Positions 22,487-61,592 of a stretch of DNA of 64,000 nucleotides are shown here, piece by piece; the first letter of the stretch is position 1, and the number at the start of each line of letters is the position of its first letter. The notes beneath the pieces were generated by a model that had not been told where the DNA came from, made no database searches, and saw only the letters and a program-made list of their open reading frames with translations. The DNA is from Trypanosoma brucei (Eukaryota). The translations under genes and the position numbers were made by a program. The stretch spans positions 3,200,001 through 3,264,000 of the forward strand of contig CM000208.1 of assembly GCA_000002445.1 (NCBI GenBank). Reading direction: 5' to 3'.

Positions 22487-23308
22487 TCACGCCGACTCGT
22501 TCAGACACTTAGGGTCCCAATCAACGACAAACCAGGGATGGGAAATGATAGCCTCAAGGGTGATACGCTTCTTAGGATTTACGACAAGCATGCGCGCGAT
22601 TAAGTCCTTTGCTGCGTCTGACACGTGCCGGACCATGCTGTACTCGCCACGCTCGATCCGTGCAAGAAGATGTCTCATGCTCCGATCCTCAAAAGGAAGT
22701 CGTCCAGCGAGCATGACGTAAAGAATGACACCGCAACTCCAAATGTCAGCACAGAGACCGTTGTAGCCGCGCTCCATGAGGACCTCAGGTGCCACATAGT
22801 TGGGAGTGCCACACACTGTTTTTAGCAGGATGTCCTGCTGCCGGTTTCCGAGACCAAAATCACTAATTTTCAGCACTCCGACAGCATCAAGCAGAAGATT
22901 TTCGGGCTTCAAGTCACGGTGAGCGAACCCCTTGCCGTGGCAGTGGTGAACGCCAGCGATGAGCTGTTGGAAGTAGCGTCGTGCAGTCGGTTCGTCAAAG
23001 CGTTTCGCAGCAACGATTTTGTCAAACAGCTCCCCGCCCGATACGAACTCTAACACAAGATAGTAATGGTTCGCTGATTCGAGCACGTCGTGAAGATCAA
23101 TAACATTCCTATGTTTAATGGATCGCATTATAGCAACTTCACGAAGCATTTGATCCTCCATCTTTTCCTTCCGAAGTCGAGTTTTGTCTATGATCTTAAC
23201 GGCAAATTTCTTACCACCTTCATCTGTTGCCAACCTTACCGTTGAGAAGTTTCCGAACCCGAGTTTTTCCCCCAAACAATACGGTCCCAGCCGCACAGGA
23301 GGTGTCAT
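22487..23308 (-). CDS. Serine/threonine protein kinase, CAMK/AMPK-related (kinase domain only, ~273 aa), paralog 2
   Basis: Same motif set as paralog 1 (GFGNFSTV, AVKIIDK, HRDLKPENLLLD, DFG, GTPNYVAPE). The track ORF starts with GTG at 23347; the first ATG is at 23308 (MTPPVRLGPY). A 203-nt block is near-identical to paralog 1. Confidence 0.85.
   Translation of the reverse strand: MTPPVRLGPYCLGEKLGFGNFSTVRLATDEGGKKFAVKIIDKTRLRKEKMEDQMLREVAIMRSIKHRNVIDLHDVLESANHYYLVLEFVSGGELFDKIVAAKRFDEPTARRYFQQLIAGVHHCHGKGFAHRDLKPENLLLDAVGVLKISDFGLGNRQQDILLKTVCGTPNYVAPEVLMERGYNGLCADIWSCGVILYVMLAGRLPFEDRSMRHLLARIERGEYSMVRHVSDAAKDLIARMLVVNPKKRITLEAIISHPWFVVDWDPKCLNESA
22854..23056 (-). repeat. 203-bp near-identical segment (copy B) shared by the two kinase paralogs
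   Basis: See copy A at 20693..20895. The two mismatches are gccGgcg vs gccAgcg and ctcAccg vs ctcCccg. Confidence 0.8.
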
Positions 23309-24177
23309 GGCAGTGAAGCCCTCTGTTACACCGGTGTTCACCCTCACTTGATAACGAGCCCTCAGGCAAACAAGACCGTCTTCTCCTTCCCTATAGTGCT
23401 ACAAAGATAGATACAGAAATATATTTATTTGTATCAGCGCTTAAGCCTCCCTTAAACCTCAGCTACGAGTATAACCCCTTTTTCGGCCTGTCTGTTGCCT
23501 TCGCCGGTTTTGCTTTTGGCTGTACACGTACGTACTTCTGTTGCCTACAGTGTCTGGTGCGAGGTGGTGCACAGGGGTGTAGAGAATAAGGGGGGCGAGT
23601 TGTATGTAGTCGATAGATGAAACACAACTGATAAGCCTGTAGTGAGGGCAGATAGAAGAGCAGATACGAGAAAACGTCCCGCGGCTTGACCTTTAAAAAA
23701 AAACACAAAAAAGTATGCAAACACTTTGGTGCACAACGCCAGCGGCTCCTGTCGCTTGCAGAGCAGGAAATGGAACAAGAGCCAGAAATAGAAAAAAAAA
23801 ACGTTTGGATAGGAAAGCACAACAGAAATAAACAAAGGAAGCACTTATGAGTCGGGCGGGATCAGGAGGAGAAAAATGCAGGAGCAACTAAGCCGGCAAC
23901 GGTAGAGAAAAAAAAAGAGAAGGGTCGAACCAAAGAAAAAGATTCCTCCCTACAGCTGGGGCCTCAGCAGACCTCTAACCACCTTTTTTTCCTCTAGGTT
24001 GTGAAGCCGCACCGCGGTATCTTTTCTCTCATACTGTATCCCTCGTTTACCCTAACCCTTTAGTCTGAATCACCTAGTTTTAAAAAAGAAAAACACACAC
24101 ACACAAATTGAGGCTTCTCTCCGACATAACAACACGCCTACCTCCCATGGGTCAATTGAATTTACGCACCACATGCC

Positions 24178-36253: not shown

Positions 36254-39200
36254 TTAGGCAGTTCCTGTGCACTGAACATGGTACACCCTTTCTTCCGGCA
36301 CCAAAGCACACTTAATCGCCAGTGAAAACGTACAAAATGAAACGTCCGTGTGATCACGTCTGGGGTTGTATGACACCGTGAATGTACCGTGACTCCCAGC
36401 AGGTCCAGTAATTTTCAGAGGCTCTAACTTCCACCCATTCTCAGTAAACGTCTCACTCCAGCCACCAACAATGCATTCAAAAGAGCTTCCTGCCTTGAGG
36501 CTACCAACGGATATTGATCTTGTTTGTTCTGCTGCGAAATAGAGTCGGACCGGGTCAATGGCAGACGCACCAGTTTCCGGGAAGGGGTTTTTCCGGAAAC
36601 CAGTGTACGGTGCACTCTCTCCCGCCGCCAATTCCTTACATGAGGGAAATGTTAGAAACACAGGCAAGTCGCACCCACGACCTTCCACAAGGATGGTTTG
36701 AACAGACGAGCCATCTGAAACGCGAAGATGCAAGGAAACCATTCCAACTACTTGTGGGGTGAACACAATCGTTTTGGGGACCTTTGTCCTTCCTGGTATG
36801 ACAAACTGATCGCACTCAAAGGTAAAAGAACAGCCTTCTGGCCACGCAGGAGTCTTTCCCTCCCCAGTAATAAACGCAACGTTCACTTCAAGAGGCAAAT
36901 TGCTCATATTGTGGAAAAAGAGTTGCTGCCGAGATTCCTGTCCAACCTGAGCGGGTTCTAGAACGATCACCTCAATGGACTTTGTTTGCTCCCCGAGCTC
37001 TCGATCGCCAGTTACAAGCAAATCGGCGGGCTCACATGATCCTTGCAACGATAACGTCACGTCATTTGAGCATGCGGAGGAAAAAACTACCTCCTCTCTG
37101 TAATAGCCGCACTCTGCGGGTGTAAAGCAAACGGTTACCGCACATTCTTCATCGTGAGAAAGGATAAACTGAGGTGGCTTGGAAACGAAGAACGGTGAAT
37201 ATGCAGCCACTGGGCGCATTTGCAAATACATGGACCCTTCCCCAGTGTAGCGAAGCAGGAAAACTCGTTCAACACGAGAGTTTAGCGGCACCTTCCCAAA
37301 ATCAACACTTTGCTTGACAGCACTCGGTGATATTTCTAGTGTTAGTGACTGCTCGACACCGCGACGTTCGTTCTTCTTCGCACCGCGTTTCGATGCCTTC
37401 CTCAAAACTGCCTTCTGGTGGACGCGGGAGACTAGGCTCACGGATAGCGTGGGTTTGACAACAACACAATTAATTTGAAGCATCACAACTTGTTCACTAG
37501 CCGCCTCCCCTACCACGCACTTTAAGAAGAAGCTGGAATGTCTGCTCCACCCCTCACCGGAGGAATTACACTCCCATGCCTTGTATAGTTCGTTTAAGCA
37601 AGCTTCTTCGCTATCTGTCACCTTTTCCAGCGGTGGTGTATGTTCCCGTTCCCTTCCTCTCCGGGATATGCGCTTGGTACTTGGCCGAGGCATTGTCTCC
37701 TCCAAGGGTGGTGTGGACGGCTGCGCAAGAGGTGCGAAGAATACAACAATAGGACAATGTTCTCCTCCTTGAAGGGTCCCGAACGAAGGACTTGCCCTTA
37801 GGTATTCAAGAGGGGAGGAAATGAAGAACGATTGTTGAGCATTCCCATTGTTCTGCAACGTTACTGAGTAATTGATCTCACCACCCAATGGGCATGCTGG
37901 AAGATCGATACATGACTTTGAGAACCGTACAGGATACTCGCATCCGCAGCCAGTCAGTTGAATGGCACGTGAAACATCGTATTCGTTGGTAATATTGACA
38001 ACGTGAGTGAACTGGCCAAGCGTTGGCGGTCGCACTCCCACCTTGAACTCCATCACCTCTTTCGGTAGCAACGTAACGATTGGGTATGGAGCAACCTTCA
38101 CGTTATCAGGAAGTGTTAAGAATCCAAGAGTTTGGGGGAGATCGGACAAATTTTCTACCCTCAGCGGCTGTACTATCTCTTCGCAGACGCTTCGCGAACC
38201 AAAGTGCAGTTCATTCGTGCTAACCCCGAACCCCCGCTCAGTTAACCTCGCATTCAGTTTTACTGAAAGGGGCGTTTTCTGATCACGGACTGACATCAGA
38301 ATTACGCTTTGAACTGTGTGTCCAAGACCTCTTTGAGGAGTGAAAAAAACGCAAATTTCGGAAGTGCTCTTTGCTTGAACACATACCGACTTTGGTGAAA
38401 AAGAGAGCGACGAAGACAACGTTGGTGGGACCTCCGGAATAACTGTTGTCAGCACGTTTGTTGTATTTTGAATCGTTATCTTTTCGCAGTACGTGGTTTC
38501 AAAAAAACACCACTCGAAGTCTATTTCAGCTGCCGAGGAGACGTGCACAGGAAGTGAACCTCCAGTCCCTCTTACTTGAATTTTTTTGACAGCCGCCGAC
38601 CCGTCTACATCGTAGCGGATTTCAATGTCACCATCAATAACAACATCTTCATGAGGAGAAAATATTACATCAAAGTAACTAGCGGAATACGGTTCAATGG
38701 TCAGAGTGTAACCAGCGGGGTTAAACACCACGACAGATTCTTCTTTTCCGTTGATAGGATTCTTATGAAGCACATCTGTCCAGTCGCGCACCGACCCACC
38801 AACCGATACTGTAGCTGCAAGGGCACCGTCATTCCTCAGAGTAACCCTTTTGGACAATTTCTCTCCGAATATCACACAACCATAATCAAGTTTGTCAGGG
38901 GAAGCAGAAACAACTGATTTACGACGAAAAGCCCTCACCGGGACAACGAAAACACCTTGTTCTGTCCGAAATACGATGGTTGTTTCTAAATCGTCTTCCT
39001 TCGAGGGGGTAAACCGAATGTTCACACTCCAAGACAGTCCGGAGGGAAGTTTCGGCGGAAGACGATATTCATACTGGAGGACCTCTTTATATTTTGGGGA
39101 GACGGGTAAAATCCTGAAGGCGTACAACTTGTTCGTGCAGTTTGTTAACGTTACCTTCTTGGTGTACGTTTGGCCGACTACAATATCTCTAAAATCTACA

Positions 39201-39394
39201 GTCCTAGGGGTTACAGTGAACAATCCTTCTGCTTGTGAACGGTCTTGCTGCTGAGCGCATGTCAGTCCGTAATCTTTAACACTCCTTTGCCGATGGTTCA
39301 CCTTCGGACGGTCAGGTAACCTTTCTTCAACCTCATCTATAATCCTGTAGCGGTCGTCTCGCAGGCCACCATCCTTAAATGCAATGAAATCCAT
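36254..39394 (-). CDS. Large ASH/MSP-fold repeat protein (about 1046 aa), likely cilium/flagellum-associated (CFAP65/CFAP74/CFAP221-like architecture)
   Basis: 3.1-kb ORF. It has repeated ~100-aa beta-rich units of the type seen in ASH/MSP domains of Hydin-family proteins (VTLTNCTNKLYAFRILPVSPKYKEV; IRFTPSKEDDLETTIVFRTEQGVFVVPVRAF; VTLRNDGALAATVSVGG). The track ORF starts with GTG; the first ATG is 3 codons in, at 39394. The family assignment is an inference. Confidence 0.65.
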   Translation of the reverse strand: MDFIAFKDGGLRDDRYRIIDEVEERLPDRPKVNHRQRSVKDYGLTCAQQQDRSQAEGLFTVTPRTVDFRDIVVGQTYTKKVTLTNCTNKLYAFRILPVSPKYKEVLQYEYRLPPKLPSGLSWSVNIRFTPSKEDDLETTIVFRTEQGVFVVPVRAFRRKSVVSASPDKLDYGCVIFGEKLSKRVTLRNDGALAATVSVGGSVRDWTDVLHKNPINGKEESVVVFNPAGYTLTIEPYSASYFDVIFSPHEDVVIDGDIEIRYDVDGSAAVKKIQVRGTGGSLPVHVSSAAEIDFEWCFFETTYCEKITIQNTTNVLTTVIPEVPPTLSSSLSFSPKSVCVQAKSTSEICVFFTPQRGLGHTVQSVILMSVRDQKTPLSVKLNARLTERGFGVSTNELHFGSRSVCEEIVQPLRVENLSDLPQTLGFLTLPDNVKVAPYPIVTLLPKEVMEFKVGVRPPTLGQFTHVVNITNEYDVSRAIQLTGCGCEYPVRFSKSCIDLPACPLGGEINYSVTLQNNGNAQQSFFISSPLEYLRASPSFGTLQGGEHCPIVVFFAPLAQPSTPPLEETMPRPSTKRISRRGREREHTPPLEKVTDSEEACLNELYKAWECNSSGEGWSRHSSFFLKCVVGEAASEQVVMLQINCVVVKPTLSVSLVSRVHQKAVLRKASKRGAKKNERRGVEQSLTLEISPSAVKQSVDFGKVPLNSRVERVFLLRYTGEGSMYLQMRPVAAYSPFFVSKPPQFILSHDEECAVTVCFTPAECGYYREEVVFSSACSNDVTLSLQGSCEPADLLVTGDRELGEQTKSIEVIVLEPAQVGQESRQQLFFHNMSNLPLEVNVAFITGEGKTPAWPEGCSFTFECDQFVIPGRTKVPKTIVFTPQVVGMVSLHLRVSDGSSVQTILVEGRGCDLPVFLTFPSCKELAAGESAPYTGFRKNPFPETGASAIDPVRLYFAAEQTRSISVGSLKAGSSFECIVGGWSETFTENGWKLEPLKITGPAGSHGTFTVSYNPRRDHTDVSFCTFSLAIKCALVPEERVYHVQCTGTA

Positions 39395-42300
39395 TACTTG
39401 CACTCTGACAGAGCAAAAAAAAAAGAAAAAATAGGAATAAATGCGCGGTTGACATGCTACTGCAGTGAGTCAGTGAGTAGCACAGAAATACACAAAAATT
39501 GTCAGTTTGATATAACGGCCTACGAAGTGAAACATTCAAAAAAGGTAGGACCGATACAGGACGCGATACCAGGTATATTCGCCTCTCAGAGGCAGTGCAA
39601 TAATGGGTAACATTTAAAAATAGAAAAAGAGATTATAGGGCAGAAGCACCAATAGTTTAGAAAACCTCGCGGCAACAAACTAGCAACATCACATCCTTTA
39701 CGTATAAGCGACGCCACTCCAATACCTAATACAAGCCTTCATTTCACAAGGGTGACCTCGGAGAAACTCCCACAGGTGTTGACGTGGAAGCACTAAGGGG
39801 AAAGGGAGGTGACACTACTTGAAACACAGACCCTCTCCATACCAGTGTACTGTCATCACACTTGTGCGTACCATTAAGCCAGAAACACATACGATAATTG
39901 CGTGACAGTATTAACGTTCTGATTGAGTGTGAAAGACGTAAATAAAACGGGCGATGCACTAATATCAGCAACAAATGAATGTTATCCGTCCTATACGCGA
40001 GGAAAATTTGCTACCGAAGCTGACGCAACACCAACGCCCAATAGCAGACCAAAGATCAACACCAGCCAGTATTATCCCTGGGATTGTTGAGCGCTAGCCC
40101 ACCCAGGCCAATGAGACAACACGCGTCCGCACCCTCACCCTTTTTTGACGCGGCAGTAAACACTGCCTTCCGCGGAAAAGCACAACTCCTGTACAATGTG
40201 GGTAACCACTTGAAGTGAAAACACCTACGCTGGGCAAGGGCTGGTGAAGCTCCACTCGCACTTCTACCACGTAGGAGTGCAACCCCGACAACCCCCTGAG
40301 GGGGCGTCGGGCACACCCGTGGCTCTACTGGCCACAGCATCAGAGGGACAGGGTCGACACCGCGACGAACCAGCCGACTCTGGTGAAGGTGCTCCGGGGA
40401 AGCAGGGTCACCTCCTGCACTTCTGTGGAATACGAGCTCCGACGGTGGAAGAGAAGAAAATCACTTTAAACACACAGGTCTCCAGCACATAACCCCTGAT
40501 AGCTACGCAAGCAAAGGTAGAGTGGGCGGTTTCAGCACCGAAAGCAGGGGTACCGCAGAGGGTCCAATGTGCTCAGGAGGGTTGGAAAGGACGATCACCG
40601 GGGCGACGCCCAGCAATGCAGGAACGGATGTTGGTTCAGGCCATGTGGCCCGAGAGCACCCTGCCCCTGCGAACCGCGAATCATAAAGAACATAGGTCGG
40701 CATGCCAATGGGAAAGTAAGAATCGGCAGTGCGGTGGCAGCCAGATGAAACAAAAAAATGAAGGAGGTGGAAACGGAGCGACACACCGCGGAGCACAGAG
40801 GACTGAAGCGTTATGGTGGACCACCCCGCGCCAAATCAACCGGATCACAGTCTGGTAGCTTTTGATGTCACCGTTGGCCGCCGTATTTGGGGAGCACACC
40901 AGGCTTCTGCACGGCATTATGTCAGGCAAAGAAAAGGGCGGCCCAGCCACGACGCCATGAACAGGCCCATGCAAAGATAAAGGAACGGCTCAGGACTTCG
41001 CCTAACTGTTTGAACAGTATCAACGGAGCAAAAAACCCAGTCATCCGAGGGGTGGCAGCACCGGGCGTCCCACGGGAAAGGAGCAGGACGATCTCCAGCA
41101 CAGGAGAGGAAAGTATCAAATCCAGAGAACGATGCAGAAAGGCGCCTCGGGGGGAGGGATGAGGGGAAAATGTCCCGGAAGAGAAGCCATAAAACACGTA
41201 CGAAGCAGCCTTCAATGGAAGGGAGGGCGGCGTCTTTCAGTTGCCTCCACCGTTGAGAAACAGCTGGGAACCACACGGCGTCTGTGTATGCCCAACGAGC
41301 TGGCTTAAGCACAGAGCCCATGACGAATGGGGCTGCACCAGTAAAAAGGCAACAGATGCAGATGTTAGAAAGGATGTGCCGAGAGAAACCGACGAAAACG
41401 CCTCTACTGAACAGCAGCGAGGATGCTAGACGCCAAAGAAGCGACGCCGAAATTGTTTCCGTACGACCGAGTCGATGTTGGCAGTGTGGGAACGACCTAC
41501 TGGATCGACAGCGGGTTAGGTTGACGTATGCTTCAAGGATTTAAAAAAATTGCTTGACTTCGTTTTGGCATGCGCAAAAACAATCAACCGAAGTCCACAA
41601 TTCAGAAAGGGACCGGGGAAGGGAAAGCGTGGGGGGACTATAGTACGGCCAAATGCACAAACGAGAGAACCTGGTGCGAAATGCCCACACACGCATCAAG
41701 TAACGCCGAACACTGCCATGCGCAAAACGTTTGGGCGACTGGCAGCCAGGAGTTTTTTTAACTTGATTGGTTGTCTGTTACGAAAAAGTAAAAAGCGCTA
41801 TCGCTTACGGCACTCACCGACAAACTGCACAGCTCAGTTTCTTGGAAACGTAATCACGAGCAGAACACCACAGTGAGTTGCCGTTGTGCGACCATAAACT
41901 TTTCATATGCGTTCGGTTCCGTGAACCATGGATTGGACTGCCCCCGCCCCTCGTGGAGCTCGCCGCCGATTCAAATACCTTCCAATCGATAAGCAAGTTT
42001 TTGTCACACATCACGACCATGTAGCGTTCCCCCTCGCAGGCTACAGGGCACCCGAAACATCACGGGTACGTTGCAAGAAGCACGGGCAGCGTGGTACAAA
42101 ATGTGCGGACCACACCCGTAACGAGACCGAAACCTGAAAACACCGGCACGCGCAGCCCACCCTCCGACAAAGTTGCTGGCTGCCTCTCCACCCAAAAATA
42201 AAAATAACGTGCACCAACTATCATGAAGATGTTGCGGCGGCAGGTGCCGGCTCTCATAGCACATATAATGAATGAGGTGGGAGGTACCCCTTCCGCTGCC

Positions 42301-44908
42301 CAATGGTGCCGAAGATGGGGAGGGACTTTCTGTTTGAGTTCCCCACCTACAGGAAGCAGTTGCGGCGGATGGCCAACAAGGGCCGCTTTCAAGTGCAGGA
42401 AGAAAAATAATTCCCCTCGTCACACTCCGGAGGTGATGGCATTGGTGACCGACCTTGTTCCACTCGGTGGTGGACGCTCTGCCGCCCTCGAGAAGAAAAT
42501 ATTAGAGTGCGTGCATGCGATTCGCTTTCGGTAAGCACAAGCGGCAACGGAACTGGATCACAAGGTCGAATAAGTTTGGTACCCCCGAAGGCGGTTGCAA
42601 CCTCAGAGTAGTTCCTTTTTGCTTCACTTTCTCCTTTTCCGTCGTTAGAGGGAAGGCGAACTTCCGCGACGGTTGGCGAGCAGAGTGGGGTCTACACTCA
42701 TTCCCATAGTGCTTCCCCGACGCGCTGACAACGATCTACGGTGACACGGTGCTGCGCTTGCCAACAAACTAGGGTAAAGGAACTGTGCTTGAAAAATGAT
42801 TGGCAACTAAAGGCTATTTTCCTAGAGGCCTCTTGCCGGAACTTGCGGGCGCGAAGTGGTGTGCAGTTGGCGGGATGAGCCCCCGGAAAAGGCGCACACT
42901 TCCAAGCATGTCGTCCTTTTAGGCGCCGGCCTTGCGACCACACCCTCAAACGTTGCTCCGCGTTGTGCTTGTGCGCGTTTCGGTGACCTTGGTGGTCGTG
43001 ATCTAAACAAAAGTGTACAATAAGAGTAAATTCTGGCGTATGTTGAGTGTGCCGCTTCCAGCACCTTTTTCATGCACTCTGGTGACGTTTTCCACCGCAT
43101 CGGGAGTGGGATGCGCAATGAAGGTGGCAACGGTGGAAAGCGCTGCGAAGAGGATTGGGGTAGAGGAAGTGCCAGAGGGATACGACGAAGGAATAAGAAA
43201 ATGAGGCTCTGCCTAGTTCAAGAAACGGACCCGACATGGGATGAAAAGTGTACAAGTGGTGGCGGGATAAAGGAACACGGGAACGCCGAAGATGACGGGC
43301 TGCACAGGGAAGGGAGGAGCAGATGGTGGGGAAACCGCATGAACTTATCACCCTTCAATTTTCACAGCCACGTGTCGGGCTCCGGTGGGGTTGGGAGGGG
43401 AAAGGGGGATGGGGAATAAATATCGCAGAATTACCGCACCCCTCGTCCTGGATGAATCCGGTTCCTTGGCCACGTTGGAACGTTGAACCGAATAGACCGT
43501 GTAAACTGCGCGCCATCAGGCGGCTCGAGGCTACGGCACTTTCAAACACAGCGAAAGTGGCGATCCCGAAGCAGACAAGGGATTTGTTCTGCAAGGAATA
43601 AAAGGAATTCCACACCTCGTTACACAAAGTGGCGTCTCCACCTTCCACACCCGGGGAAAGTAACTTTGGGGCGCCGGAGCATCACTGCTTTTGTGCTGCC
43701 TCAGTTCCACCCGCTTTCTCACAACGTCTCCGTGGTAAACATATTTCGTAACCCGCTATCCCTGCTGATGCTCACAGCTGCATCGGCCTCCAAAGGATGG
43801 AGGTTGGAATGGGCTGTTGTAAACTCTCCTCCGCCTGTAGGGTCCCAAATTCGGAAGGATTGAAGTCTCAGTGGTCTGACCCAACGTAATATCTGCATAT
43901 GCCCCCCTTCGGTGATTTAGCGGCACATTGGGTAGGAGAGACTGATTGGACGACTACAAGCTCCAGCCAACGAATTCGATTGGATTTGGTGGCCGTAAGG
44001 GCTCTAATTGCCTGGAACAATTGCTTTAGAGAGCTTTTTGGGAAAATGCCTCCCTAACCCCAACGACATCAAACTACGCACGGGGAGGGGGAAACTATTT
44101 ACGGCGAAAGCGGGCTCGAGAGTCACTGGCTTTGCGAATAGCAGTTCACACCTGCCCTGCGGATGTGCATGATTTGGTGGGAAAGGTGGAAAGTTGGAAA
44201 TGCTGCCACTATGCGGTTCGAGGGTCAGGAGGATCCGCTGTCATATGATCAAGTGATGTGTCTGAGAAGGAGGGAGAAGAGGAAGGGGATGCCAGAAAGG
44301 CCGATTCGCCGCGGCCCACGCGCTGCAACATGAGAACTCTTTGCTTAAACAGCGTGGGACCCGCAGTGAGAAAGTATGGTGGGAGGGTGGGCTTTGGTTT
44401 TTCCAACTTCCTGCGAAGAGATCGACCGTTACAACTTTGTGTCAATCCATCTGGTGCCGACCTACTCTTATTAACATTTCCGCCGTTTCGGTTTGTCCTC
44501 ACTACTTCTGATGAGAGAACAACCGCAAAGGGCATTGACTACGCTCCAAATGAAAGATAATTAAAAAAGAGAGCACAGGGAGAATGAAATGCAGCGACGG
44601 GCACTGTGCGGAACAACCGCCACTGCCGCATTCGTACCAATATATGCGTAATTTGAGCAATGCTACTCCAGTGGAAGGATGAAGGGAGGGGAGAAGGTTT
44701 GTTCCCCACCACCTCCACCGGTCCGTTACTCAAACACAACGTCCCGAGGACAGCTATGTTTGAAAGTAAGAAAATGTCGATAAATGGGGTTAGATGGATC
44801 TTAACAACACATAAAGAAATAAATTACGGGGGAATAGGAACTGGAGCATTAGTCCCAGCCAAATACCCCCATATCGTCACCCATTTCCTTCATCCCCCGC
44901 AGTACTTC

Positions 44909-46057
44909 TCATACCCGAGGTGGAATGAGTGACTCGGAGGGGCCGAGATACTTCACCCCACACCCGACAGGGGACTGCAGTAACATCTCAAACGGCTTCT
45001 TCGGGTGGTCAATCAGCTTCTTATATTCGTCGGGAAGCGATACAACCTTGACTTTCTCAAGTAACTCGCGGTCTCCGAAGAAAAACTTCTCGAATGGTGT
45101 TGGGAAGTGCTCCATGAGCATAGCCACGGCTTCAGGAAGGTCCTCCTTAAGAACAAACAAGAAACAGTTCGCCCCGGCATCGAAGGTGTAAGCCAGTGCT
45201 GTGCGGCCCTTCTTCGCATTGTAGGCTTTCACGAGGCGGATCATCGCGTAGCTGTCCTCCGTCGCATACGTAATCTTCGGTTCGGTGGTCGCGCATATCT
45301 CCTGCAGGTCGTCCGATTCAAGCATTGCAATCTCTGCAAAGGTTGCGAAATCCCTCGCCTTTATAGCTCTCGAGGCAATTTTCATGCGCTCCGGTACGGT
45401 TTCTGAGATGCGCTTCTTCATCAAAGGCGACGTTTTGAGGGACTGCTGCATGCCCTTGGTGCTGGAGACATCCTTCTGTGCCCCTTTAAGGACAGCGCAC
45501 ATCACCTGTATCTCGGGCCAATGCGTTTCGTCAACAAATTGTGTGGCCACACAGTCGCTACCATCAGGTTTCTCCCCCTTGTTCCATATAACGAAACCCC
45601 CAAAGGCACTGCGGCAGGCGCTGCCAGATCCAAGGCGAGCAAGCATTGAGACGTTAGTGGTGGACTTGAAAGCACGGATGAGCGCCGCCGACATGGCGCA
45701 GTAGCCGCTAGCGGAAGAGGCCATCCCAGCGGCAGTTGGGAAGTTGTTCTCCGATACGATGTTCACCTTTTTGTTTTTCAGGTCTTCGGGGCATGTGCTC
45801 CTGAGATGAAGGAGCATCGACTGGACCCGTGGAGTCTTTCCCACATCAACCTCGGTGCCGTTCAGTCGCAACGTGTCTGTCTCGATGTCGTCCCTGAGTT
45901 CCACGGAGGTTTTGCTACGAAACGGGCTTGCGGAGAGCGTGATGCTAAAAGAGTCATTTGTGGGGAGTATCAGCGTCTCTCCACCCTCACGCTTACCCCA
46001 GTACTTGATAAAAGCGATGTTGATGGGTGCCTCGACGGTGACACACTGGTCGGACAT
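44909..46057 (-). CDS. MVD: Diphosphomevalonate decarboxylase (mevalonate pyrophosphate decarboxylase), GHMP kinase family
   Basis: The NIAFIKYWGKR N-terminal motif, the GHMP ATP-binding loop (TAAGMASSASGYCAMSAAL) and overall collinearity with MVD. The track ORF (to 46165) begins with TTG; the first ATG is at 46057 (MSDQCVTVEAPIN) and gives a protein of about 382 aa. Confidence 0.88.
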   Translation of the reverse strand: MSDQCVTVEAPINIAFIKYWGKREGGETLILPTNDSFSITLSASPFRSKTSVELRDDIETDTLRLNGTEVDVGKTPRVQSMLLHLRSTCPEDLKNKKVNIVSENNFPTAAGMASSASGYCAMSAALIRAFKSTTNVSMLARLGSGSACRSAFGGFVIWNKGEKPDGSDCVATQFVDETHWPEIQVMCAVLKGAQKDVSSTKGMQQSLKTSPLMKKRISETVPERMKIASRAIKARDFATFAEIAMLESDDLQEICATTEPKITYATEDSYAMIRLVKAYNAKKGRTALAYTFDAGANCFLFVLKEDLPEAVAMLMEHFPTPFEKFFFGDRELLEKVKVVSLPDEYKKLIDHPKKPFEMLLQSPVGCGVKYLGPSESLIPPRV

Positions 46058-46259
46058 GGCGCCGCTTTGCCACGCAGCAATTAATTCTTCCCTCGCTTTA
46101 CCTACGCTGAGGTCAGTAAGAAAGGGGAAGTAAGTACTGAGGAGAAAAAGTGATTGAGAAAACAATTTAAAAGCTACAAGCTCCGTTCACATTACGATTT
46201 CCCCCCTCTTTTTGCGGATAGGAAACGCCACGCCTGGGTCGAATCTGCGACCCGCAATG

Positions 46260-47285
46260 CTAGGCCACACTCCGGCAGGAACGCAAGATGGTGGCCACCC
46301 TGTTATGTGCGGCGAAGGAGGCTTGTGGTACACTTGGCGGGGTCAGCGGAGCCACCGAGGCCTCAGCCTCCCAACCAAATCCTACAAGAGCCGCTAACGC
46401 ATCTTCGGCATCGGCGTGCTTCTCCGTGCTTTTTGACACCATGCGCCGACCTGTCAGCAGGGCCAACGCAAAGTCGGCATCGTCAGGATGGAACAACTCC
46501 ACGACTGTAGCGAATGAGCCACCGTTGGAAGCAAAACTGAAAGCGTAATCCGCAACGGGACCAACGTGTCTGGTGAGTTTCGATAGCAGCCCCGCGGGGT
46601 CGCAAGTGGACAGCGGCACCGGCACCGCGTTTCGTATCCGTGCGCTCGCTAGTGGGGTATTGCCCTGCACAAAGCCTTCACTAGATGGGCCGCTAACGTC
46701 GGTGGCTGCCGTTGTTTCACCACGAAGCAGTGCCGTCAACTCTCCATCCGTCTCACGAATGCCTTCCGTCGTCCTCTCCAACGATTCTTGCGCGCGGCAG
46801 TACGACTCCTGGAGCTCCAACAGTCTTTGCAGCAACTCCCCGCCCTCAGCCGCCTGCTCGCTAGTTTCCAACATTTCCGGAATGGCACGTACAAGCAGCT
46901 CATCCATTTGCAAGTCGCGGGGCATCAGGTGGTTCTTTGGGAGATTTGGATTCATTTCCAACTTAGTTTTCTCCTCTTGTACGCCCCCCGCGGCGCCCTC
47001 TAGAGTAGCCACTGCAGCCGTTTGTTTCTTGAACACGTTGGAGTGTATTTCGATGGCATGATTCTTCAGCCGTTCGCCATCAAGGTGGTCTACCGCCAGC
47101 CGCGCCGCTGAACTCTGGTGGAAACGAACCCAGTAAAATGACCGTTGCCGGGAAGCATCGTATCGCATTTTCAACTCATCAATGTCCCCAATAATACGCA
47201 ACCATTCGTGCACATCTTCAGCGAGTACCGCCGAGAGGTCATCAACAAAGACGTGCACAACCCTTGCGTCACCTCGATCGGCCAT
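46260..47285 (-). CDS. Hypothetical protein (about 341 aa) with degenerate RRM-like segments
   Basis: The track ORF starts with TTG at 47399; the first ATG is at 47285 (MADRGDARVVHVFVDD). The N-terminus has a beta-alpha-beta pattern with an RNP1-like SFYWVRF. I cannot assign a family. Confidence 0.5.
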   Translation of the reverse strand: MADRGDARVVHVFVDDLSAVLAEDVHEWLRIIGDIDELKMRYDASRQRSFYWVRFHQSSAARLAVDHLDGERLKNHAIEIHSNVFKKQTAAVATLEGAAGGVQEEKTKLEMNPNLPKNHLMPRDLQMDELLVRAIPEMLETSEQAAEGGELLQRLLELQESYCRAQESLERTTEGIRETDGELTALLRGETTAATDVSGPSSEGFVQGNTPLASARIRNAVPVPLSTCDPAGLLSKLTRHVGPVADYAFSFASNGGSFATVVELFHPDDADFALALLTGRRMVSKSTEKHADAEDALAALVGFGWEAEASVAPLTPPSVPQASFAAHNRVATILRSCRSVA

Positions 47286-47637
47286 TGCTTTCAGGAATAG
47301 GGAAGGAGAGGGATTGTCGCGCACACGGGCAGGGAGAGGGGCAACAGTTGGTTCACAGAAAGATGTACAGAACAACGGAGGCCCGCAGTACGTGCTCAAA
47401 CTGGCATAGGGACCATGCGTTTAAGAACACCAAATTGAAATAAAGGAAACAAAAAAGTATAATTAGGTGTAAAGAGGGAGTAGGACAAAAGGGGAAACAT
47501 AGGTGCTATCCCCTGGTGGTGGTGACCCTAGCAACGAAGAACGAGCCACAGTTATTCCACAGTTAATGTTTACAACAAATCAAACGCATTTATTTTGTAT
47601 ATAACATTGTCTATGTATTTTCCTTTACGAATTATTT

Positions 47638-49220
47638 CTACGAATTAGCCTTTTCAGCCTCCTCAGTTTTTTTGTTTCCCCCCGTTTCGCTACCTTCGCT
47701 GTCCGCATTGGAGTGAGGTGCACTCGCCTCACGCAACATTATGCAGTAGACGGCAAGCCAGCACGGAATTGCAAGACCAAGGAATGCGAATATCACAAGA
47801 AGAGCATTACGTAGCTGATACTTGCTGACGCAGTGTCCATCCGTGCTATTACCCGTTTTGTTTATCCACTTGCATAAATTGTCAATGTCGTTTCTGCACT
47901 GGGTGTTATTACCATGCGCCGGACATCCTCTCGAGAAGGCATTGTCAGAGAGATAACCAGCAAGTGTTGGTGACGGGAAATCGCCTAGCAAGTGAATAAG
48001 AAGAACGGAGTAACTCACGGCATATGCCCTTTGATCCCATGGGACCACTGTTAGTATTGCTGAGTTAATGGGTGCTGTGACTGCAAAGAGAGTAAACACC
48101 GAAACCACCAGAAGCGATGTAAACAGCCAAGTAACTTCCATGAACAATGCAGCAAGTCCTACGGGGACGCTGACGGCAATCATGACGACGCAAAAAAGCT
48201 GACACTTCATAGTGCCTGAAGAGCCAAGGCTCCCTCCAAGTTTGTCCACTACAACGCCTCCGACGATGGATCCAATGATACCGGTAAGTGCTGTGGTACC
48301 GCCCATGATCATTGATGCCGTCATGTTGGTAAGCTCCATCGGCCCATCAACTAGAAAAGGTATTGACCATACCGAGAGGCCGCCGATTACAAAGCAGTAC
48401 ATTGCGTAACCGAAGACAACAAGGAGATACCGTGCGTTCGTGAAAATTGAAAGGCAGCCTTATGTACCGGGAGGTATTCGTTGTCGCGTTTCTGGCGCAT
48501 GTTGTATCGTTTGGGGAGGAATACGATAAGTAGCAAAATCGGAATGGCGACGATCGCAAGGGAGAGAAAGGTTACACGCCAGCCCTCCAGACCCCCTACG
48601 GAACCATACGTACCCATCACACCACCGGCAGCCATACCAACCGCTGTCCCGACGGGGATCATAGAGTAGAACGTGCCTATCCACGATGTCCGTGACTCGG
48701 GTGGTGCAATGGCATCAATCACCGTCACTGTGAAACCAACAAAGGCGGCCTCTCCCACCCCATCAAAGATTCTGCAGGCGAGAAGGAACTCATACGAGCG
48801 TGCCAGGCCGGTTCCAACTAAAGAAGCAACCCATACAATGATGCCTACGGCGATGATCCACTTGGATTGTACGACACCTCCGAGCCCAGCGAACAGGGGA
48901 CAGGCGACCATGAAGCCAATCATGAAGCCTGAGAAAAGCAAGCCGGCCTTCGTATCCGTCAGAACATTCGATGACCCCGCGATGGTCGGATCACCCTTAA
49001 TGACGACTAAACAACCGGCAATGGCTCCGCGGTCGTAATACGTGACGAAGTTGAGAAGCGTGAAGATGGAAAGAACAATGCGAGGTGTCATGAGCCGCCC
49101 CCACCGTGATACAGGTTCCTCGGCAGTAGGATCAACCTCCTCAGGTGTAGTTTGCACTTCTTCATGTTCGTTCGTTTCGTGGGGATCGTTCCTTTGCGTT
49201 TTATCTTCGGAAGCCATCAT
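47638..49220 (-). pseudogene. Major facilitator superfamily transporter (12 TM) interrupted by a -1 frameshift in the central loop; pseudogene or sequencing/assembly indel
   Basis: The N-terminal ORF 48387..49220 (ATG start, 6 TM helices) ends in the TM6-TM7 loop (...KRYNMRQKRDNEYLPVHK). The C-terminal ORF 47638..48402 lies in the adjacent frame and supplies TM7-TM12. Reading the C-terminal frame upstream gives ...GCLSIFTNARYLLVVFGYAMYCF back to a TAA at 48460..48462. A single extra C in the CC run at about 48458 (plus strand) would fuse the two into one 530-aa MFS protein. Confidence 0.55.
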
Positions 49221-49494
49221 TCACTACTGTAGTCGAAAAAAGAGGCGGGGTATGGGAAGCTTTGTCCGCTGCTTAGCGGTAAGCGTAGCAATGGATTGAA
49301 ACAAATGAGAGGGCGAGGTGGGTGTTGTGTGAAAGGCGTGGCGCTTTGTTTTCACTTTCTGTTAATAAGCGGTTTGCACAAATGAATCTAAGTGTATTGT
49401 TGATCAACAACTAAAGGAAATAAATAAGTCACGAACGAATAACATCAAGGGAAGCTCCCATGAACTTGAAAGAATTATCTGTCAGTTGGGCAGG

Positions 49495-52326
49495 TCAGCA
49501 GCCTGTGATCCCTCTCAGCGCATGTAGGGCAGAGACAACACGGTGTGTTGGAGGGAGAATGTCAACCAGAGCCCAGGCAGCACGCGCCCACTCACCCTGC
49601 TTTTCTGTATTGTTGATGTGAAGATAGAAGACGGAATTGTTCCACGCCTCGACCGTAAAATATTCCAAAAGGAGTAGGGCGAAAGCGGAGGAGTTATTGG
49701 CGGTTACGCCCCTTTCCCCAACCGCACCGTAGCGCCCAAGAAAGGTGCCGACGGTAATACCCATCACGGGAAGAGAAAGGAAACTCATGAGGTGCTGCAC
49801 TACGCACATTTGCTCTTTTCTGTCGGATCCCAAAGTGAAGGCTTTGTACAGGCAAGAGAGGTTCTTTGTAAGGGTTTCAGCAACCGCTTCCTCTTCACCT
49901 GCCCGAACCTCAGTGGAAGCCGCAACTCTTTCCATTAAGTCGAGCGAGGCTTTCGCAAACAGCCCCATGGCGAATTCTCGTAAATAGGAACATTCTGTTG
50001 TGACACGGGATGCCTCGAACGTGGCGGCCTCTGCCAGCGCCTCGTAAACATTATACGGCACAGGGATAGTGGAAAGCTCCCTCACTATCTCATCCATTTC
50101 CTGCGGTGTTTCGATCGATGGGCCACGCAAATGCCACTCAGACTTACTCAGCAAAAATGTCACACGACATTCCGCGGTATAAGTTGTTGAGATAAGATCC
50201 CTACACGCGTTAAGGTGTTTCTCAAGATCCGCCAAGTCAATCAGTGGATTACCTGTTGAAAACAACCGAAACTCGTCCTCCAACATGCACAAGATGGCAG
50301 CCAACAACGGTGACTGTGTGCCCGCTTCCCTAGGCGACGGATCTTGCTCTGCAATGCAAGCGGCTGCTCGAAATAAGGCAATACTTGTGGCGCTAGCTTC
50401 GAGTGTGAACTCTGAACCTAGTAAAAGGAAAGCTTGCGTCCACCACATTACTTCGTCATGTGTTAGTTTCAGCGTGGCAGAGCCCTCCGAGAGAATGTTT
50501 TGAATCCGCTGCGTGAGTTTGTACAAGTCGTCATCAGAGTGCGCGCAACTTCTATTGATAGCCGTGGTGACATACACCCGTAGAACCTCAAGTTCTGTCC
50601 TGACATCTGCGAAGGGTACTGGCGAGAGGAGAGCTTGCAAGGCGGCCAACGAGGCAACGTTGAGGCAGTTCCGCTTTAGGCAGCAGTTGATAGCAGTGCA
50701 CAAGGCTGGGATTACCAACTCCGAGGGTTCACATGCCACCAGTTGGTGTATTTCCTCTTTCATGCATGTCTCGCTTCCTTCCATCACAAATATTTTGAAT
50801 AACAACGCGTGGGCGAAGACACAACGTGGTTTTCGCTCTGTGTACCTAAGCAGAATGTCCTTTGGTTTTGCCAGCATGTTCACTTGCTGTCCTTGCTCCA
50901 CAGACTCCACATATTTTGTGCATAGGTGAAGCTGCAGAGCATTGATCTCAGAGTCGCTTGCACAATCTGCAAGGCGGATCGCTGCCTCAAGACTTTCCAC
51001 TGCCTCTCCGTGGCTAAATTCTGCGTTGTCGCTAAGTTCCCAGAGCCATTTAAAGCAATAGCGTCGATATTTCGGATCCTCGAAGTCCAAACACTCATTT
51101 CGCATTATTTGCAGGGCGGAACGACAAGACTCGGTATCTTTACTGTGAAGGAGGAGCTGAACAAGTCGAAACGTGACACCCTCGGCAGCCGAAGTGCCCT
51201 TGGTCCTGTTCTGTAGTAACTGCATGCTTTCGACTGAACCGCTTTCCATTGTTGTGAACAGCTTCTGAAAGTCAAAACAGACAGCCACCGCGTCATCGAC
51301 GGTGACGTCGAGTCTCTGGACATATTCGCGGAGTTGAACAGACGCCTCCTTTTCCATACCTGCTGCTGCGGTAGCTTTTAGACGCAATAAAGCGGATGTA
51401 TTGGATTGCAGTGCGGAGTCTGCCTCCACCGCCCAACGAACCGCTTCTGACGCGTTCCCTTCCCGGAGCCACGATAACGCCATCTGCTCTAGCGTTGCCC
51501 CACGAAGCATTGGCAGGCGGCAGGGTGCGTCACTTCCTCCATTCTCTTTGAGGTAATTTTGAACGTTAATCGAAGACATAAGCATGTCGCGTATGAAACA
51601 CTCATTTGGAGGCTCCACCTCAGCACTGCCTACCGTGAAAACGAAGTGGAAGAATGTCTCGAGCAAAGTGCGGTGAAGCGTGTTGTCTCGCAACAGCATT
51701 TGCGCAAGCCTTTCACATGACTGTGACGACTCAAACAGGTGCCCGAGGTTCCACATCACCTCCATCTTTGTGTATTCAAATTCCCAACTCAAATTACGGT
51801 GTTTGAGGTGTGGCAACCGTTGTACTACTCCGGGTGGTATGTGGGGAACGATGGTTTCAACAGCGGCAAGAAGTGCCTTAGAACCCTCTGGCATATGATT
51901 CAGAGAGAGGTCACGCGACGTCTTCAGACACATTAGTATGCATTGCTCTGCTTCCCTTGGATGGTGAGTAAAGTAACTGTGTCGAACACTCTCCTCCGAG
52001 TACACAAAATTACCAAGAAGGAACGACCTAGTCGCAAACTCACGCAACGCTACCTTCAGTCTTCGCTCATGCTCTCTACTGTGGTCCGTGCACCGCATTG
52101 TGACGTTCCAACATGCGCTTCCGAGAAGTCGCAGTTCTTCCAGCACCTTCACTGGGAGCGGAGAATCACTGCTTTGATTTGCGGCTGCCCCCTCAACCGC
52201 ACTTGTGGCGATTTTAATATCTGATAGCATATCCTCACAATTGGCGAGGTCCTCACCTTTCCCATGGGTGGTGAATCGATGAAGCACACCATCGAGTTTG
52301 GAGCACAACTGCTTTGTGTCTATCAT
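49495..52326 (-). CDS. Hypothetical protein (943 aa, largely alpha-helical)
   Basis: 3-kb ORF. The 5' 84 codons of the track ORF (TTG start at 52578) translate a G-run and a polypyrimidine tract (FFPPPL...LLFLFLGCYTYCVFLLLL) and are probably 5' flank. The first plausible ATG is at 52326 (MIDTKQLCSKLDG). Confidence 0.65.
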   Translation of the reverse strand: MIDTKQLCSKLDGVLHRFTTHGKGEDLANCEDMLSDIKIATSAVEGAAANQSSDSPLPVKVLEELRLLGSACWNVTMRCTDHSREHERRLKVALREFATRSFLLGNFVYSEESVRHSYFTHHPREAEQCILMCLKTSRDLSLNHMPEGSKALLAAVETIVPHIPPGVVQRLPHLKHRNLSWEFEYTKMEVMWNLGHLFESSQSCERLAQMLLRDNTLHRTLLETFFHFVFTVGSAEVEPPNECFIRDMLMSSINVQNYLKENGGSDAPCRLPMLRGATLEQMALSWLREGNASEAVRWAVEADSALQSNTSALLRLKATAAAGMEKEASVQLREYVQRLDVTVDDAVAVCFDFQKLFTTMESGSVESMQLLQNRTKGTSAAEGVTFRLVQLLLHSKDTESCRSALQIMRNECLDFEDPKYRRYCFKWLWELSDNAEFSHGEAVESLEAAIRLADCASDSEINALQLHLCTKYVESVEQGQQVNMLAKPKDILLRYTERKPRCVFAHALLFKIFVMEGSETCMKEEIHQLVACEPSELVIPALCTAINCCLKRNCLNVASLAALQALLSPVPFADVRTELEVLRVYVTTAINRSCAHSDDDLYKLTQRIQNILSEGSATLKLTHDEVMWWTQAFLLLGSEFTLEASATSIALFRAAACIAEQDPSPREAGTQSPLLAAILCMLEDEFRLFSTGNPLIDLADLEKHLNACRDLISTTYTAECRVTFLLSKSEWHLRGPSIETPQEMDEIVRELSTIPVPYNVYEALAEAATFEASRVTTECSYLREFAMGLFAKASLDLMERVAASTEVRAGEEEAVAETLTKNLSCLYKAFTLGSDRKEQMCVVQHLMSFLSLPVMGITVGTFLGRYGAVGERGVTANNSSAFALLLLEYFTVEAWNNSVFYLHINNTEKQGEWARAAWALVDILPPTHRVVSALHALRGITGC

Positions 52327-61351: not shown

Positions 61352-61592
61352 CACTGCTAGTTTTTCCTACTCAAGCAAACAACAATAGCGAAAAAATACT
61401 GAAAAAAAAATATATACATATATATGGCTGTGTATTGTTAGAACAGCGTTGATTAAGCTAACTTCAGTAACGGGAGGAGAACGATCACCTTGAAGGCATT
61501 GTAGTCCACATCCCTACTCCCACGTATGTGAAATTCAATAAACACACATATATACACGTGTATGTCCGTACGTGGATGAAGGATGCATATGC

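What the first reader, a model, noticed from the sequence alone, without database searches (positions are those of the whole stretch)
48440..48480. 12-TM MFS transporter is split by a single-base frameshift in a CC run within the central cytoplasmic loop
ORF 48387..49220 encodes TM1-6 and the start of the central loop (...DNEYLPVHK). ORF 47638..48402, in the adjacent frame, encodes TM7-12. Reading the second frame upstream gives GCLSIFTNARYLLVVFGYAMYCF back to a TAA at 48460..48462. Reading gaa tac ctc ccg gta cat aag g|gc tgc ctt on the minus strand, one extra G (C on plus, in the CC at about 48458) would give a continuous transporter of about 530 aa. This is either a real pseudogene, a strain polymorphism, or a homopolymer sequencing error.
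Basis: seen in the sequence. Interest (0 to 1): 0.5.

Follow-up and report, generated by a model that had tools for sequence, protein, structure and literature searches.

The report
Frameshift-split Spinster-like transporter gene, T. brucei
A conserved 527-residue membrane transporter gene in the Trypanosoma brucei TREU927 reference is cut in two by one missing base, which lies exactly where two divergent versions of the gene are spliced together, so it is either a reference-assembly error or a strain-specific dead allele, and in both cases ordinary.

Summary
The window is T. brucei brucei TREU927 chromosome 10. The two ORFs are real: 48387..49220 (277 aa) and 47638..48402 (254 aa, identical to XP_827842.1 'transporter, putative'). 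They are the halves of one Spinster-like MFS transporter. That gene is a single 494-548 aa ORF in every other trypanosomatid found, and 527 aa in the syntenic T. b. equiperdum locus.

A net loss of one base separates the halves, but it is not in the CC run at 48458. Homology holds frame 1 through ...HKAAFQ, and the missing base lies at 48443-48449 (TTTCA-ATTTTC).

The gene sits in a segmental duplication of at least 6.3 kb. At this spot two haplotypes differ at 15 of 42 bases. The window switches from one haplotype to the other within 5 nt of the missing base. The T. equiperdum OVI assembly broke at the same place, leaving a 10-N gap.

I judge a collapsed-haplotype or paralog consensus artefact slightly more likely (about 0.5) than a real recombination-born null allele (about 0.42). 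Programmed frameshifting or a functional split gene is not supported. Only reads or PCR from TREU927 can decide. Interest is low. The practical consequence is that the reference proteome lacks the full-length protein.

The parts
47638..49220 (-). Whole interrupted gene for a Spinster-like MFS transporter, 527 aa once one base is restored. It is probably old locus tag Tb10.05.0030, roughly Tb927.10.13580; both IDs are inferred only.
   Evidence: A fused query hits the T. b. gambiense 527-aa MFS protein at 97% identity and 100% coverage. The best PDB sequence matches are SPNS1 (1e-24) and SPNS2 (6.5e-20). The neighbour RBP27 is XP_827841.1 = Tb10.05.0020.
48387..49220 (-). N-terminal ORF of 277 aa. 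Residues 1 to about 258 are genuine (TM1-6 plus the loop). The last 19 residues (FSRTHGISLLSSVTQCTAL) are an out-of-frame tail.
   Evidence: This 277-aa product is absent from the protein collection, so it is not annotated as a protein.
47638..48459 (-). C-terminal reading frame (TM7-12 plus a Cys-rich loop). The annotated CDS 47638..48402 (254 aa) starts at a Met inside TM7.
   Evidence: The 254-aa ORF is identical to EAN78730.1/XP_827842.1. The frame is open back to the TAA at 48460-62.
48443..48449 (-). Site of the net one-base loss. The minus strand reads CAATTTTC where intact copies read CACATTTTC (beta) or CAATTGTTT (alpha). It includes a T4 run at 48446-48443.
48426..48467 (-). Hypervariable 42-bp patch where the alpha and beta versions differ at 15 positions. 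The window is alpha-like at 48467-48453 and beta-like at 48452-48426.
48346..48545 (-). Tract carrying the diagnostic bases of the B paralog inside an otherwise A-locus gene. It is interrupted by the short alpha patch at 48467-48453.
   Evidence: Diagnostic-site table: A = L008 + L002, B = L003, L004, L006, L005. The closest haplotype (T. equiperdum OVI left contig) has the same tract, uninterrupted and in frame.
43632..49902 (-). The 'A' copy of a segmental duplication. It contains the 3' end of the ZIP4-like gene, the MFS gene, RBP27 (46260..47285), MVD (44909..46057) and a 108-aa ORF. It is 98-99% identical to a second copy beside SSNA1.
   Evidence: BLAST of the loci against the window and the gene content of L002, L003, L004 and L006.

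Best explanation
One conserved Spinster-like MFS transporter gene is interrupted by a net -1 frameshift at 48443-48449. The frameshift is a junction scar between two divergent versions of the gene. The alpha version is typical of the syntenic 'A' locus and the beta version is typical of the duplicated 'B' locus.

The two versions can be aligned with two compensating one-base gaps 4 nt apart (CA-ATTG versus CACATT-). The window carries the alpha state at the first gap and the beta state at the second, so one base is lost.

I think it most likely that this join was made in silico. The TREU927 reference is a collapsed mosaic of two haplotypes, and here also of two 98%-identical paralogs. The consensus probably switched between reads of the two versions inside the dense variant cluster. 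On this reading the real gene is an intact 527-aa ORF, and the 254-aa 'transporter, putative' model is an annotation consequence.

Shown: the split, the site, the mosaic, and intact orthologues. Inferred: that the join is an assembly artefact.
For: 1. Window identity. The 254-aa ORF, MVD and RBP27 are identical to TREU927 proteins EAN78730, EAN78728 and EAN78729. The snoRNAs TB10Cs4H2-4 are present.
2. Intact single ORFs elsewhere. This holds in T. b. gambiense (two copies), T. b. equiperdum, T. congolense, T. vivax, T. theileri, T. cruzi and Leishmania. The truly syntenic T. b. equiperdum locus, colinear over 18.8 kb, encodes an uninterrupted 527 aa.
3. Mosaic structure. The window is B-like at 48545-48529, A-like at 48456-48453, B-like at 48452-48346 and A-like downstream. 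The missing base lies no more than 5 nt from a switch. A random indel in a 1.58-kb gene would fall that close with a probability of about 0.6-1% (inference).
4. A second assembly failed here. T. equiperdum OVI broke at the same spot. It has a 10-N gap whose 85-bp overlapping ends are beta (left, in frame) and alpha (right).
5. No other defect. Both halves are open, and this is the only coding indel in 21 kb of TREU927-versus-OVI alignment.
6. Cost of a real lesion. No full-length family member from TREU927 exists in NCBI or UniRef-derived data. A real lesion would therefore remove a pan-trypanosomatid protein from the annotated proteome.
7. Published precedent. PMC8445201 states that the TREU927 assembly collapsed both haplotypes into a mosaic. 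It also states that clusters of nearby allelic variants produced INDEL errors and truncated ORFs in collapsed T. brucei assemblies. It gives a wrongly split TREU927 gene as an example.
Against: No reads from TREU927 could be examined. The TREU927 chromosome is not in the gene-position index, and a junction-peptide search found nothing.

Chromosome 10 is finished Sanger sequence with a low error rate (my own knowledge). Real gene conversion between the two copies clearly happens in this lineage: the C-terminal tails and patches are swapped among strains. The same mosaic could therefore be a real allele.

One base (T at 48452) does not fit a single clean alpha-to-beta switch under the gapped alignment. 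MAFFT itself aligns alpha and beta without gaps, so the compensating-indel reading is not forced.
Confidence: 0.5

Rival explanations
1. The frameshift is real in TREU927 DNA, on one or both alleles. Gene conversion between the A and B paralogs, or between alpha and beta alleles, formed heteroduplex DNA across the hypervariable patch. Patchy repair or an out-of-register template switch then produced the alpha/beta mosaic and lost one base. The result is a very young pseudogene or null allele. Translation stops after 277 aa, and the TM7-12 half is not made.
For: Mosaicism between the two copies is widespread among strains. It includes swapped C-terminal tails and short patches. The B-like tract at the A locus also occurs in T. 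equiperdum OVI, so conversion here is real. The copy number of the unit varies: there are two B-type copies 15.6 kb apart in T. b. equiperdum. Duplicated genes tolerate loss. The reference is finished Sanger sequence (own knowledge).
Against: There is no second disabling mutation and no sign of decay in either half. No other assembly shares the lesion. No intact second copy is annotated in TREU927: the B locus there shows only MVD-B, a 139-aa ZIP4 fragment and SSNA1. A homozygous lesion would thus mean loss of a transporter conserved from Leishmania to T. brucei.
Confidence: 0.42
2. The split is functional. Either a programmed -1 ribosomal frameshift (or transcriptional slippage) restores the full protein, or the two halves are expressed as separate six-TM half-transporters that assemble.
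For: A -1 shift after ...CAA would read ATT TTC ACG and restore ...AAFQIFTNARY... exactly (read from the sequence). Split MFS halves are known to complement each other when co-expressed (LacY; own knowledge).
Against: There is no X XXY YYZ heptamer anywhere in the overlap zone, and the only homopolymer is T4. The two-frame arrangement is absent from every orthologue and paralog. The 254-aa ORF starts in the middle of TM7. Trypanosome mRNAs are monocistronic, and no separate processing signal was looked for (own knowledge).
Confidence: 0.03
3. It is a simple homopolymer miscall unrelated to the mosaic. The true sequence has T5 (CAATTTTTC) or A3 (CAAATTTTC) and the reference dropped one base.
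For: The missing base abuts a T4 run at 48446-48443. An in-register alpha-to-beta hybrid would read CAATTTTTCACG, with T5 (derived).
Against: No sequenced copy has T5 or A3 at this place. Sanger chemistry rarely miscounts runs of 4-5 bases (own knowledge). The coincidence with the haplotype switch would remain unexplained.
Confidence: 0.05

Closest known systems
Wrongly split or truncated genes in collapsed T. brucei assemblies (for example Tb927.2.5860/Tb927.2.5870 in TREU927; Cosentino, Brink & Siegel 2021, PMC8445201)
   Same: One gene appears as two adjacent ORFs in the TREU927 reference while other assemblies have one ORF. The paper names dense nearby allelic variants as a cause of INDEL errors in collapsed assemblies. 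Here 15 variants lie in 42 bp at the break.
   Different: This locus is not mentioned in that paper's main text. Its size-ratio table is cut before chromosome 10 in the copy held. The confusion here may involve a paralog 146 kb away as well as alleles. The artefact status is inferred, not shown.
Spinster (SPNS) family of MFS transporters: human SPNS1 and SPNS2, Hyphomonas HnSpns
   Same: Sequence matches are SPNS1 (9boi, 1e-24), SPNS2 (8g92, 6.5e-20) and HnSpns (6e8j, 2e-8). They cover residues 34-435 or 49-508 and include the TM1 'Y-x-D-R' motif. Pfam MFS_1 and hydropathy are consistent with 12 TM. JGI names some homologues 'Spinster family'.
   Different: Identity is low, so this is a family-level match only. 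The trypanosomatid proteins carry a Cys-rich insertion of about 40 residues before TM12 that matches the Pfam OATP C-terminal region. The substrate is unknown.
Frameshift (unitary or duplicated-copy) pseudogene
   Same: The reading frame is broken relative to intact orthologues, inside a duplicated unit where redundancy would relax selection.
   Different: It has a single lesion and no further decay. The lesion coincides with a haplotype junction. No intact second copy is annotated in this strain.
Chimeric genes formed by recombination between neighbouring paralogs in T. brucei (for example AQP2/3 chimeras; own knowledge)
   Same: Short-tract exchange between highly similar paralogs on chromosome 10 produces mosaic coding sequences.
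   Different: AQP2/3 chimeras are in frame and are selected by drugs. Here the junction is out of frame, and no selection is evident.

Membership tests
Major facilitator superfamily / Spinster-like subfamily | Significant match to the MFS profile above the curated threshold | tested here: met
   The N half scores 85.3 bits against PF07690 MFS_1 (cut-off 33.4). The precomputed Pfam for all full-length homologues is MFS_1.
Major facilitator superfamily / Spinster-like subfamily | Twelve transmembrane segments arranged as 6 + 6 around a central loop | tested here: met
   Kyte-Doolittle peaks give TM1-6 before residue 234, TM7 at 266-284 and TM12 at 473-491. TM9 and TM10 merge in the scan. The alignment to SPNS1 spans residues 34-435. 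This is an approximate method and no dedicated topology predictor was run.
Major facilitator superfamily / Spinster-like subfamily | Closest characterised relatives are Spinster proteins | tested here: met
   The top PDB sequence hits are SPNS1, SPNS2 and HnSpns. OATP and VAChT matches are far weaker.
Major facilitator superfamily / Spinster-like subfamily | Transport of lysolipid or sphingolipid substrates | not testable with these tools
   No functional data were found for the trypanosome protein.
Frameshift pseudogene | Reading frame broken relative to intact orthologues | tested here: met
Frameshift pseudogene | The lesion exists in the organism's DNA and is not an assembly product | not testable with these tools
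   No TREU927 reads or independent TREU927 assembly were reachable.
Frameshift pseudogene | Further signs of relaxed constraint (extra stops, indels, excess substitutions) | tested here: not met
   Both halves are open. Only about 4 private substitutions were seen. This is the only coding indel in 21 kb against T. equiperdum.
Collapsed-haplotype or paralog consensus artefact | The indel lies inside a dense cluster of variants between two co-assembled versions, at a switch between them | tested here: met
   There are 15 differences in 42 bp, and the alpha-to-beta switch is within 5 nt of the missing base. A second assembly broke at the same spot.
Collapsed-haplotype or paralog consensus artefact | Underlying reads contain only in-frame versions | not testable with these tools
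   This needs TREU927 reads.
Programmed -1 ribosomal frameshifting | Slippery heptamer X XXY YYZ in the zone where both frames are open | tested here: not met
   None was found between 48475 and 48387.
Programmed -1 ribosomal frameshifting | The two-frame arrangement is conserved in orthologues | tested here: not met
   All orthologues and paralogs are single ORFs.
Naturally split half-transporter gene pair | Orthologues also encoded as two genes, each half with a plausible N-terminus | tested here: not met
   Orthologues are single genes. The second ORF starts inside TM7. The T. equiperdum 254-aa model is caused by a scaffold gap.

The most novel reading that the evidence does not exclude
The frameshift is real and homozygous, and TREU927 has no intact second copy, since none is annotated at its B locus. 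This tsetse-transmissible reference strain would then be a natural knock-out of a Spinster-like transporter conserved across all trypanosomatids. That would show the transporter is dispensable through the whole life cycle. It would also show a gene-conversion junction between haplotypes that differ by compensating indels directly creating a null allele.
Probability: 0.12. Interest if true: 0.35.

Novelty: new member of a known kind. Interest (0 to 1): 0.15.

Why it matters
The main consequence is practical. The TREU927 annotation is the reference for most T. brucei proteomics, RNAi (RIT-seq) and tagging work. In the GenBank and UniProt-derived data reachable here, this conserved Spinster-like transporter appears only as a 254-aa fragment that starts inside TM7. 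The N-terminal half is not annotated as a protein.

If the frameshift is an artefact, the gene model should be merged into a 527-aa protein. If it is real, it is a recent strain-specific null allele in a duplicated, gene-converting locus. Neither outcome changes current understanding of biology.

Tried and rejected
1. Independent evidence for the frameshift in TREU927. Exact look-ups of the 254-aa ORF, the 277-aa ORF and the TREU927 MVD-B protein found no contigs. The 277-aa ORF and three repaired 527-aa variants are not in the protein collection. A search with the out-of-frame junction peptide found nothing. A Logan contig carrying the identical MVD was only 1.4 kb long.\n\n2. T. equiperdum OVI as a second split orthologue. 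I rejected this because its 254-aa model follows a 10-N gap with overlapping, divergent contig ends.\n\n3. The T. b. equiperdum 428-aa model as evidence of decay. I rejected this because it comes from two homopolymer contractions (C4 to C3, T4 to T3), which look like the homopolymer errors common in long-read assemblies, though I did not check how this assembly was sequenced.\n\n4. DAL972 copy 'A' (L002) as the syntenic orthologue. This holds only in part. Its upstream flank does not match the window beyond 50540. The real ZIP4 locus in DAL972 ends in a 739-N gap. I used T. b. equiperdum L008 instead.\n\n5. Literature. No paper in the library mentions XP_827842, Q388P0, Tb10.05.0030 or Tb927.10.13560-13590. 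The size-ratio table of PMC8445201 is cut before chromosome 10. The T. b. gambiense genome paper does not discuss this locus.\n\n6. Programmed frameshifting. No slippery site was found.

Full report
WHAT THE WINDOW IS

The 254-aa ORF 47638..48402(-) is identical to T. brucei brucei TREU927 protein EAN78730.1/XP_827842.1, 'transporter, putative'. The next two genes downstream are identical to TREU927 RBP27 (XP_827841.1, Tb10.05.0020) and mevalonate-diphosphate decarboxylase (MVD, EAN78728.1) (ID from PMC9695099).

Rfam finds the chromosome-10 snoRNAs TB10Cs4H2-H4 at 3073-3800. The GH31 ORF at 58928..61354 fits glucosidase II, Tb927.10.13630 (PMC8630539). The MFS gene is therefore about Tb927.10.13580 or Tb10.05.0030. 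That ID is inferred from gene order and was not verified. Nearly all ORFs of 200 aa or more, including every one with a database match, lie on the minus strand, which indicates one polycistronic unit.

CHECKING THE OBSERVATION

- The N ORF matches Pfam MFS_1 (85 bits), and the C part matches the C-terminal region of OATP.
- A fused query hits a 527-aa T. b. gambiense protein at 97% identity over its whole length.
- It also hits single-ORF homologues of 494-548 aa in T. congolense, T. vivax, T. theileri, T. cruzi, Leishmania and other trypanosomatids.
- The best solved relatives by sequence are SPNS1, SPNS2 and HnSpns, so this is a Spinster-like MFS transporter.
- The break is at about residue 258, between TM6 (216-234) and TM7 (266-284).

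Intact copies read ...HKATFHIFTNARY... or ...HKAALQLFTNVAY.... The window's first frame (...HKAAFQ) therefore stays homologous past the CC run at 48458.

DNA alignment puts the missing base at 48448|47 against TTTCACATTTTC, or at 48445|44 against CTTCAATTGTTT. The repaired protein is ...HKAAFQ-x-FTNARY..., 527 aa, not ...HK-GCLS-IFTNARY.

CONTEXT: A GENE-CONVERTING SEGMENTAL DUPLICATION

Window 49902..43632 is one copy ('A') of a duplicated unit of at least 6.3 kb. The unit holds the 3' end of a ZIP4-like gene, the MFS gene, RBP27, MVD and a 108-aa ORF.
- In T. b. gambiense DAL972 a second copy ('B') lies beside SSNA1, about 146 kb away.
- T. b. equiperdum has two B-type copies 15.6 kb apart.
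- T. b. equiperdum also has the truly syntenic A copy, colinear with the window over 18.8 kb. Its MFS gene is an uninterrupted 527-aa ORF.

The copies are 98-99% identical but exchange patches. Examples are the C-terminal tail of the B copy in T. b. equiperdum, which is A-type, and several short tracts.

THE FRAMESHIFT SITS ON A HAPLOTYPE JUNCTION

In a 42-bp patch (48467-48426) two versions differ at 15 positions.
- Alpha is GCTGCCCTTCAATTGTTTACGAACGTGGCGTATATCC. It is found in the A-type copies L008 and L002, and on the right side of the OVI gap.
- Beta is GCCACTTTTCACATTTTCACGAACGCACGGTATCTCC. It is found in all four B-locus copies and on the left side of the OVI gap.

At sites that are fixed between A-type and B-locus copies, the window reads as follows:
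- B-like at 48545-48529
- A-like at 48456-48453
- B-like at 48452-48346, including the missing base
- A-like from 48161 downward

The missing base is thus no more than 5 nt from a switch. For a random indel in 1.58 kb the chance of that is about 1% (inference).

Alpha and beta can also be aligned with two compensating one-base gaps (CA-ATTG and CACATT-). The window has the alpha state at the first and the beta state at the second, which alone gives a net -1. Only the T at 48452 does not fit. MAFFT prefers the ungapped alignment, so this reading is possible but not forced.

The closest haplotype is the left contig of T. equiperdum OVI. It shares about 10 private variants with the window and carries an uninterrupted, in-frame beta tract. 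That assembly breaks exactly here, with a 10-N gap whose 85-bp overlapping ends are beta and alpha.

Across 21 kb of TREU927-versus-OVI alignment, this is the only indel in coding sequence.

MECHANISM AND RIVALS

The join between alpha and beta was made either in the cell or in the assembler.

For the assembler:
- PMC8445201 states that the TREU927 reference collapsed both haplotypes into a mosaic.
- It reports that clusters of nearby allelic variants caused misalignment and INDEL errors that truncated ORFs in collapsed T. brucei assemblies.
- It gives a wrongly split TREU927 gene as an example.
- A second assembly failed at the same spot.
- The gene has no other defect.
- No full-length TREU927 family member exists in the protein data. 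The annotated B locus has only MVD-B, a 139-aa ZIP4 fragment and SSNA1. A real lesion would therefore remove a pan-trypanosomatid protein from this strain's annotated set.

For a real allele:
- Conversion between the copies is clearly frequent.
- The B-like tract at the A locus is seen in two assemblies.
- Chromosome 10 is finished Sanger sequence.
- Heteroduplex repair or an out-of-register template switch would give exactly this sequence.

I put the artefact at about 0.5 and a real null allele at about 0.42. A plain homopolymer miscall of a T5 or A3 run is possible but unsupported by any copy (0.05).

Programmed frameshifting or a functional split is very unlikely (0.03), for three reasons:
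- There is no slippery heptamer in the overlap.
- The arrangement is not conserved.
- The second ORF starts inside TM7.

COMPARISON WITH WHAT IS KNOWN, AND VERDICT

The protein is a member of the Spinster-like MFS group by sequence. Its substrate is unknown.

The interruption is an ordinary kind of event: either a reference consensus error or a young frameshift allele in a duplicated locus. I found no paper that mentions this gene.

The useful output is a corrected position for the lesion, a specific cause (a haplotype or paralog junction), and a simple k-mer or PCR test that would settle it. Interest is low.

Noticed in passing
window 43632-49902; L002, L003, L004, L006, L008: There is a segmental duplication of at least 6.3 kb at 98-99% identity. 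It holds the 3' end of the ZIP4-like gene, the MFS gene, RBP27, MVD and a 108-aa ORF. A second copy lies beside SSNA1 about 146 kb away in DAL972, and two B-type copies lie 15.6 kb apart in T. b. equiperdum. Copy number and patch content vary between strains.
   Followed up: partly
TREU927 B locus (not in window); proteins EAN78778-EAN78780: In the TREU927 annotation the B locus has MVD-B, a 139-aa fragment of the ZIP4-like gene and SSNA1. It has no RBP27 or MFS protein between them, although DAL972 has both. This could be a deletion, unannotated pseudogenes or an assembly collapse in the reference. I could not fetch the DNA.
   Followed up: partly
window 48426-48467 and 48529-48545: Two short hyper-divergent patches lie in otherwise nearly identical paralogs: 15 differences in 42 bp and 6 in 17 bp. 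They change 7 of 13 residues at the start of TM7 and 3 residues in TM6. The origin of such dense divergence is unexplained.
   Followed up: partly
L007 11024-11762 (DAL972 FN554973.1): The DAL972 assembly has a 739-N gap immediately after the ZIP4-like stop codon, where the MFS unit should begin. Genes from near NMT follow the gap. The DAL972 'A' copy of the unit sits about 100 kb away next to a NIF-domain gene. This suggests a rearrangement or a misplacement at the duplication boundary.
   Followed up: partly
L001 3913-3922 (T. equiperdum OVI CZPT02001192.1): A 10-N scaffold gap lies inside the MFS gene. Its 85-bp overlapping contig ends carry different haplotypes. The annotated 254-aa protein SCU69297.1 is a by-product of this gap.
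   Followed up: yes
L006 3706-3990 (T. b. equiperdum CM010681.1): Two homopolymer contractions (CCCC to CCC, TTTT to TTT) truncate one B-type MFS copy to a 428-aa model. They look like long-read assembly errors. In the same assembly the intact syntenic A-locus ORF (L008 11107-12690) has no gene call on record.
   Followed up: yes
window 47460-47721 versus L003 5512-5817: The DAL972 B copy has a completely different C-terminal tail and 3' flank (…STPHSRVASEDRRLVGDQTPAERSKDTL). The B-type copies of T. b. equiperdum carry the A-type tail.
   Followed up: no
window 39403-44909: A 5.5-kb stretch with 52-54% G+C has no ORF over 140 aa. It lies between MVD and a CFAP74-like gene (36254..39403). It is equally free of called genes in T. 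equiperdum and T. b. equiperdum (L009, L010). Its nature is unknown; a long UTR or a degenerate element are possibilities.
   Followed up: no
window 3073-3800 (-): A cluster of three H/ACA-like snoRNAs (TB10Cs4H4, TB10Cs4H3, TB10Cs4H2) scores well above the Rfam thresholds.
   Followed up: no
window 20317-21144 and 22487-23347 (-): Two neighbouring short protein-kinase genes (275 and 286 aa) share 82% nucleotide identity over about 600 bp. They are a tandem paralog pair.
   Followed up: no
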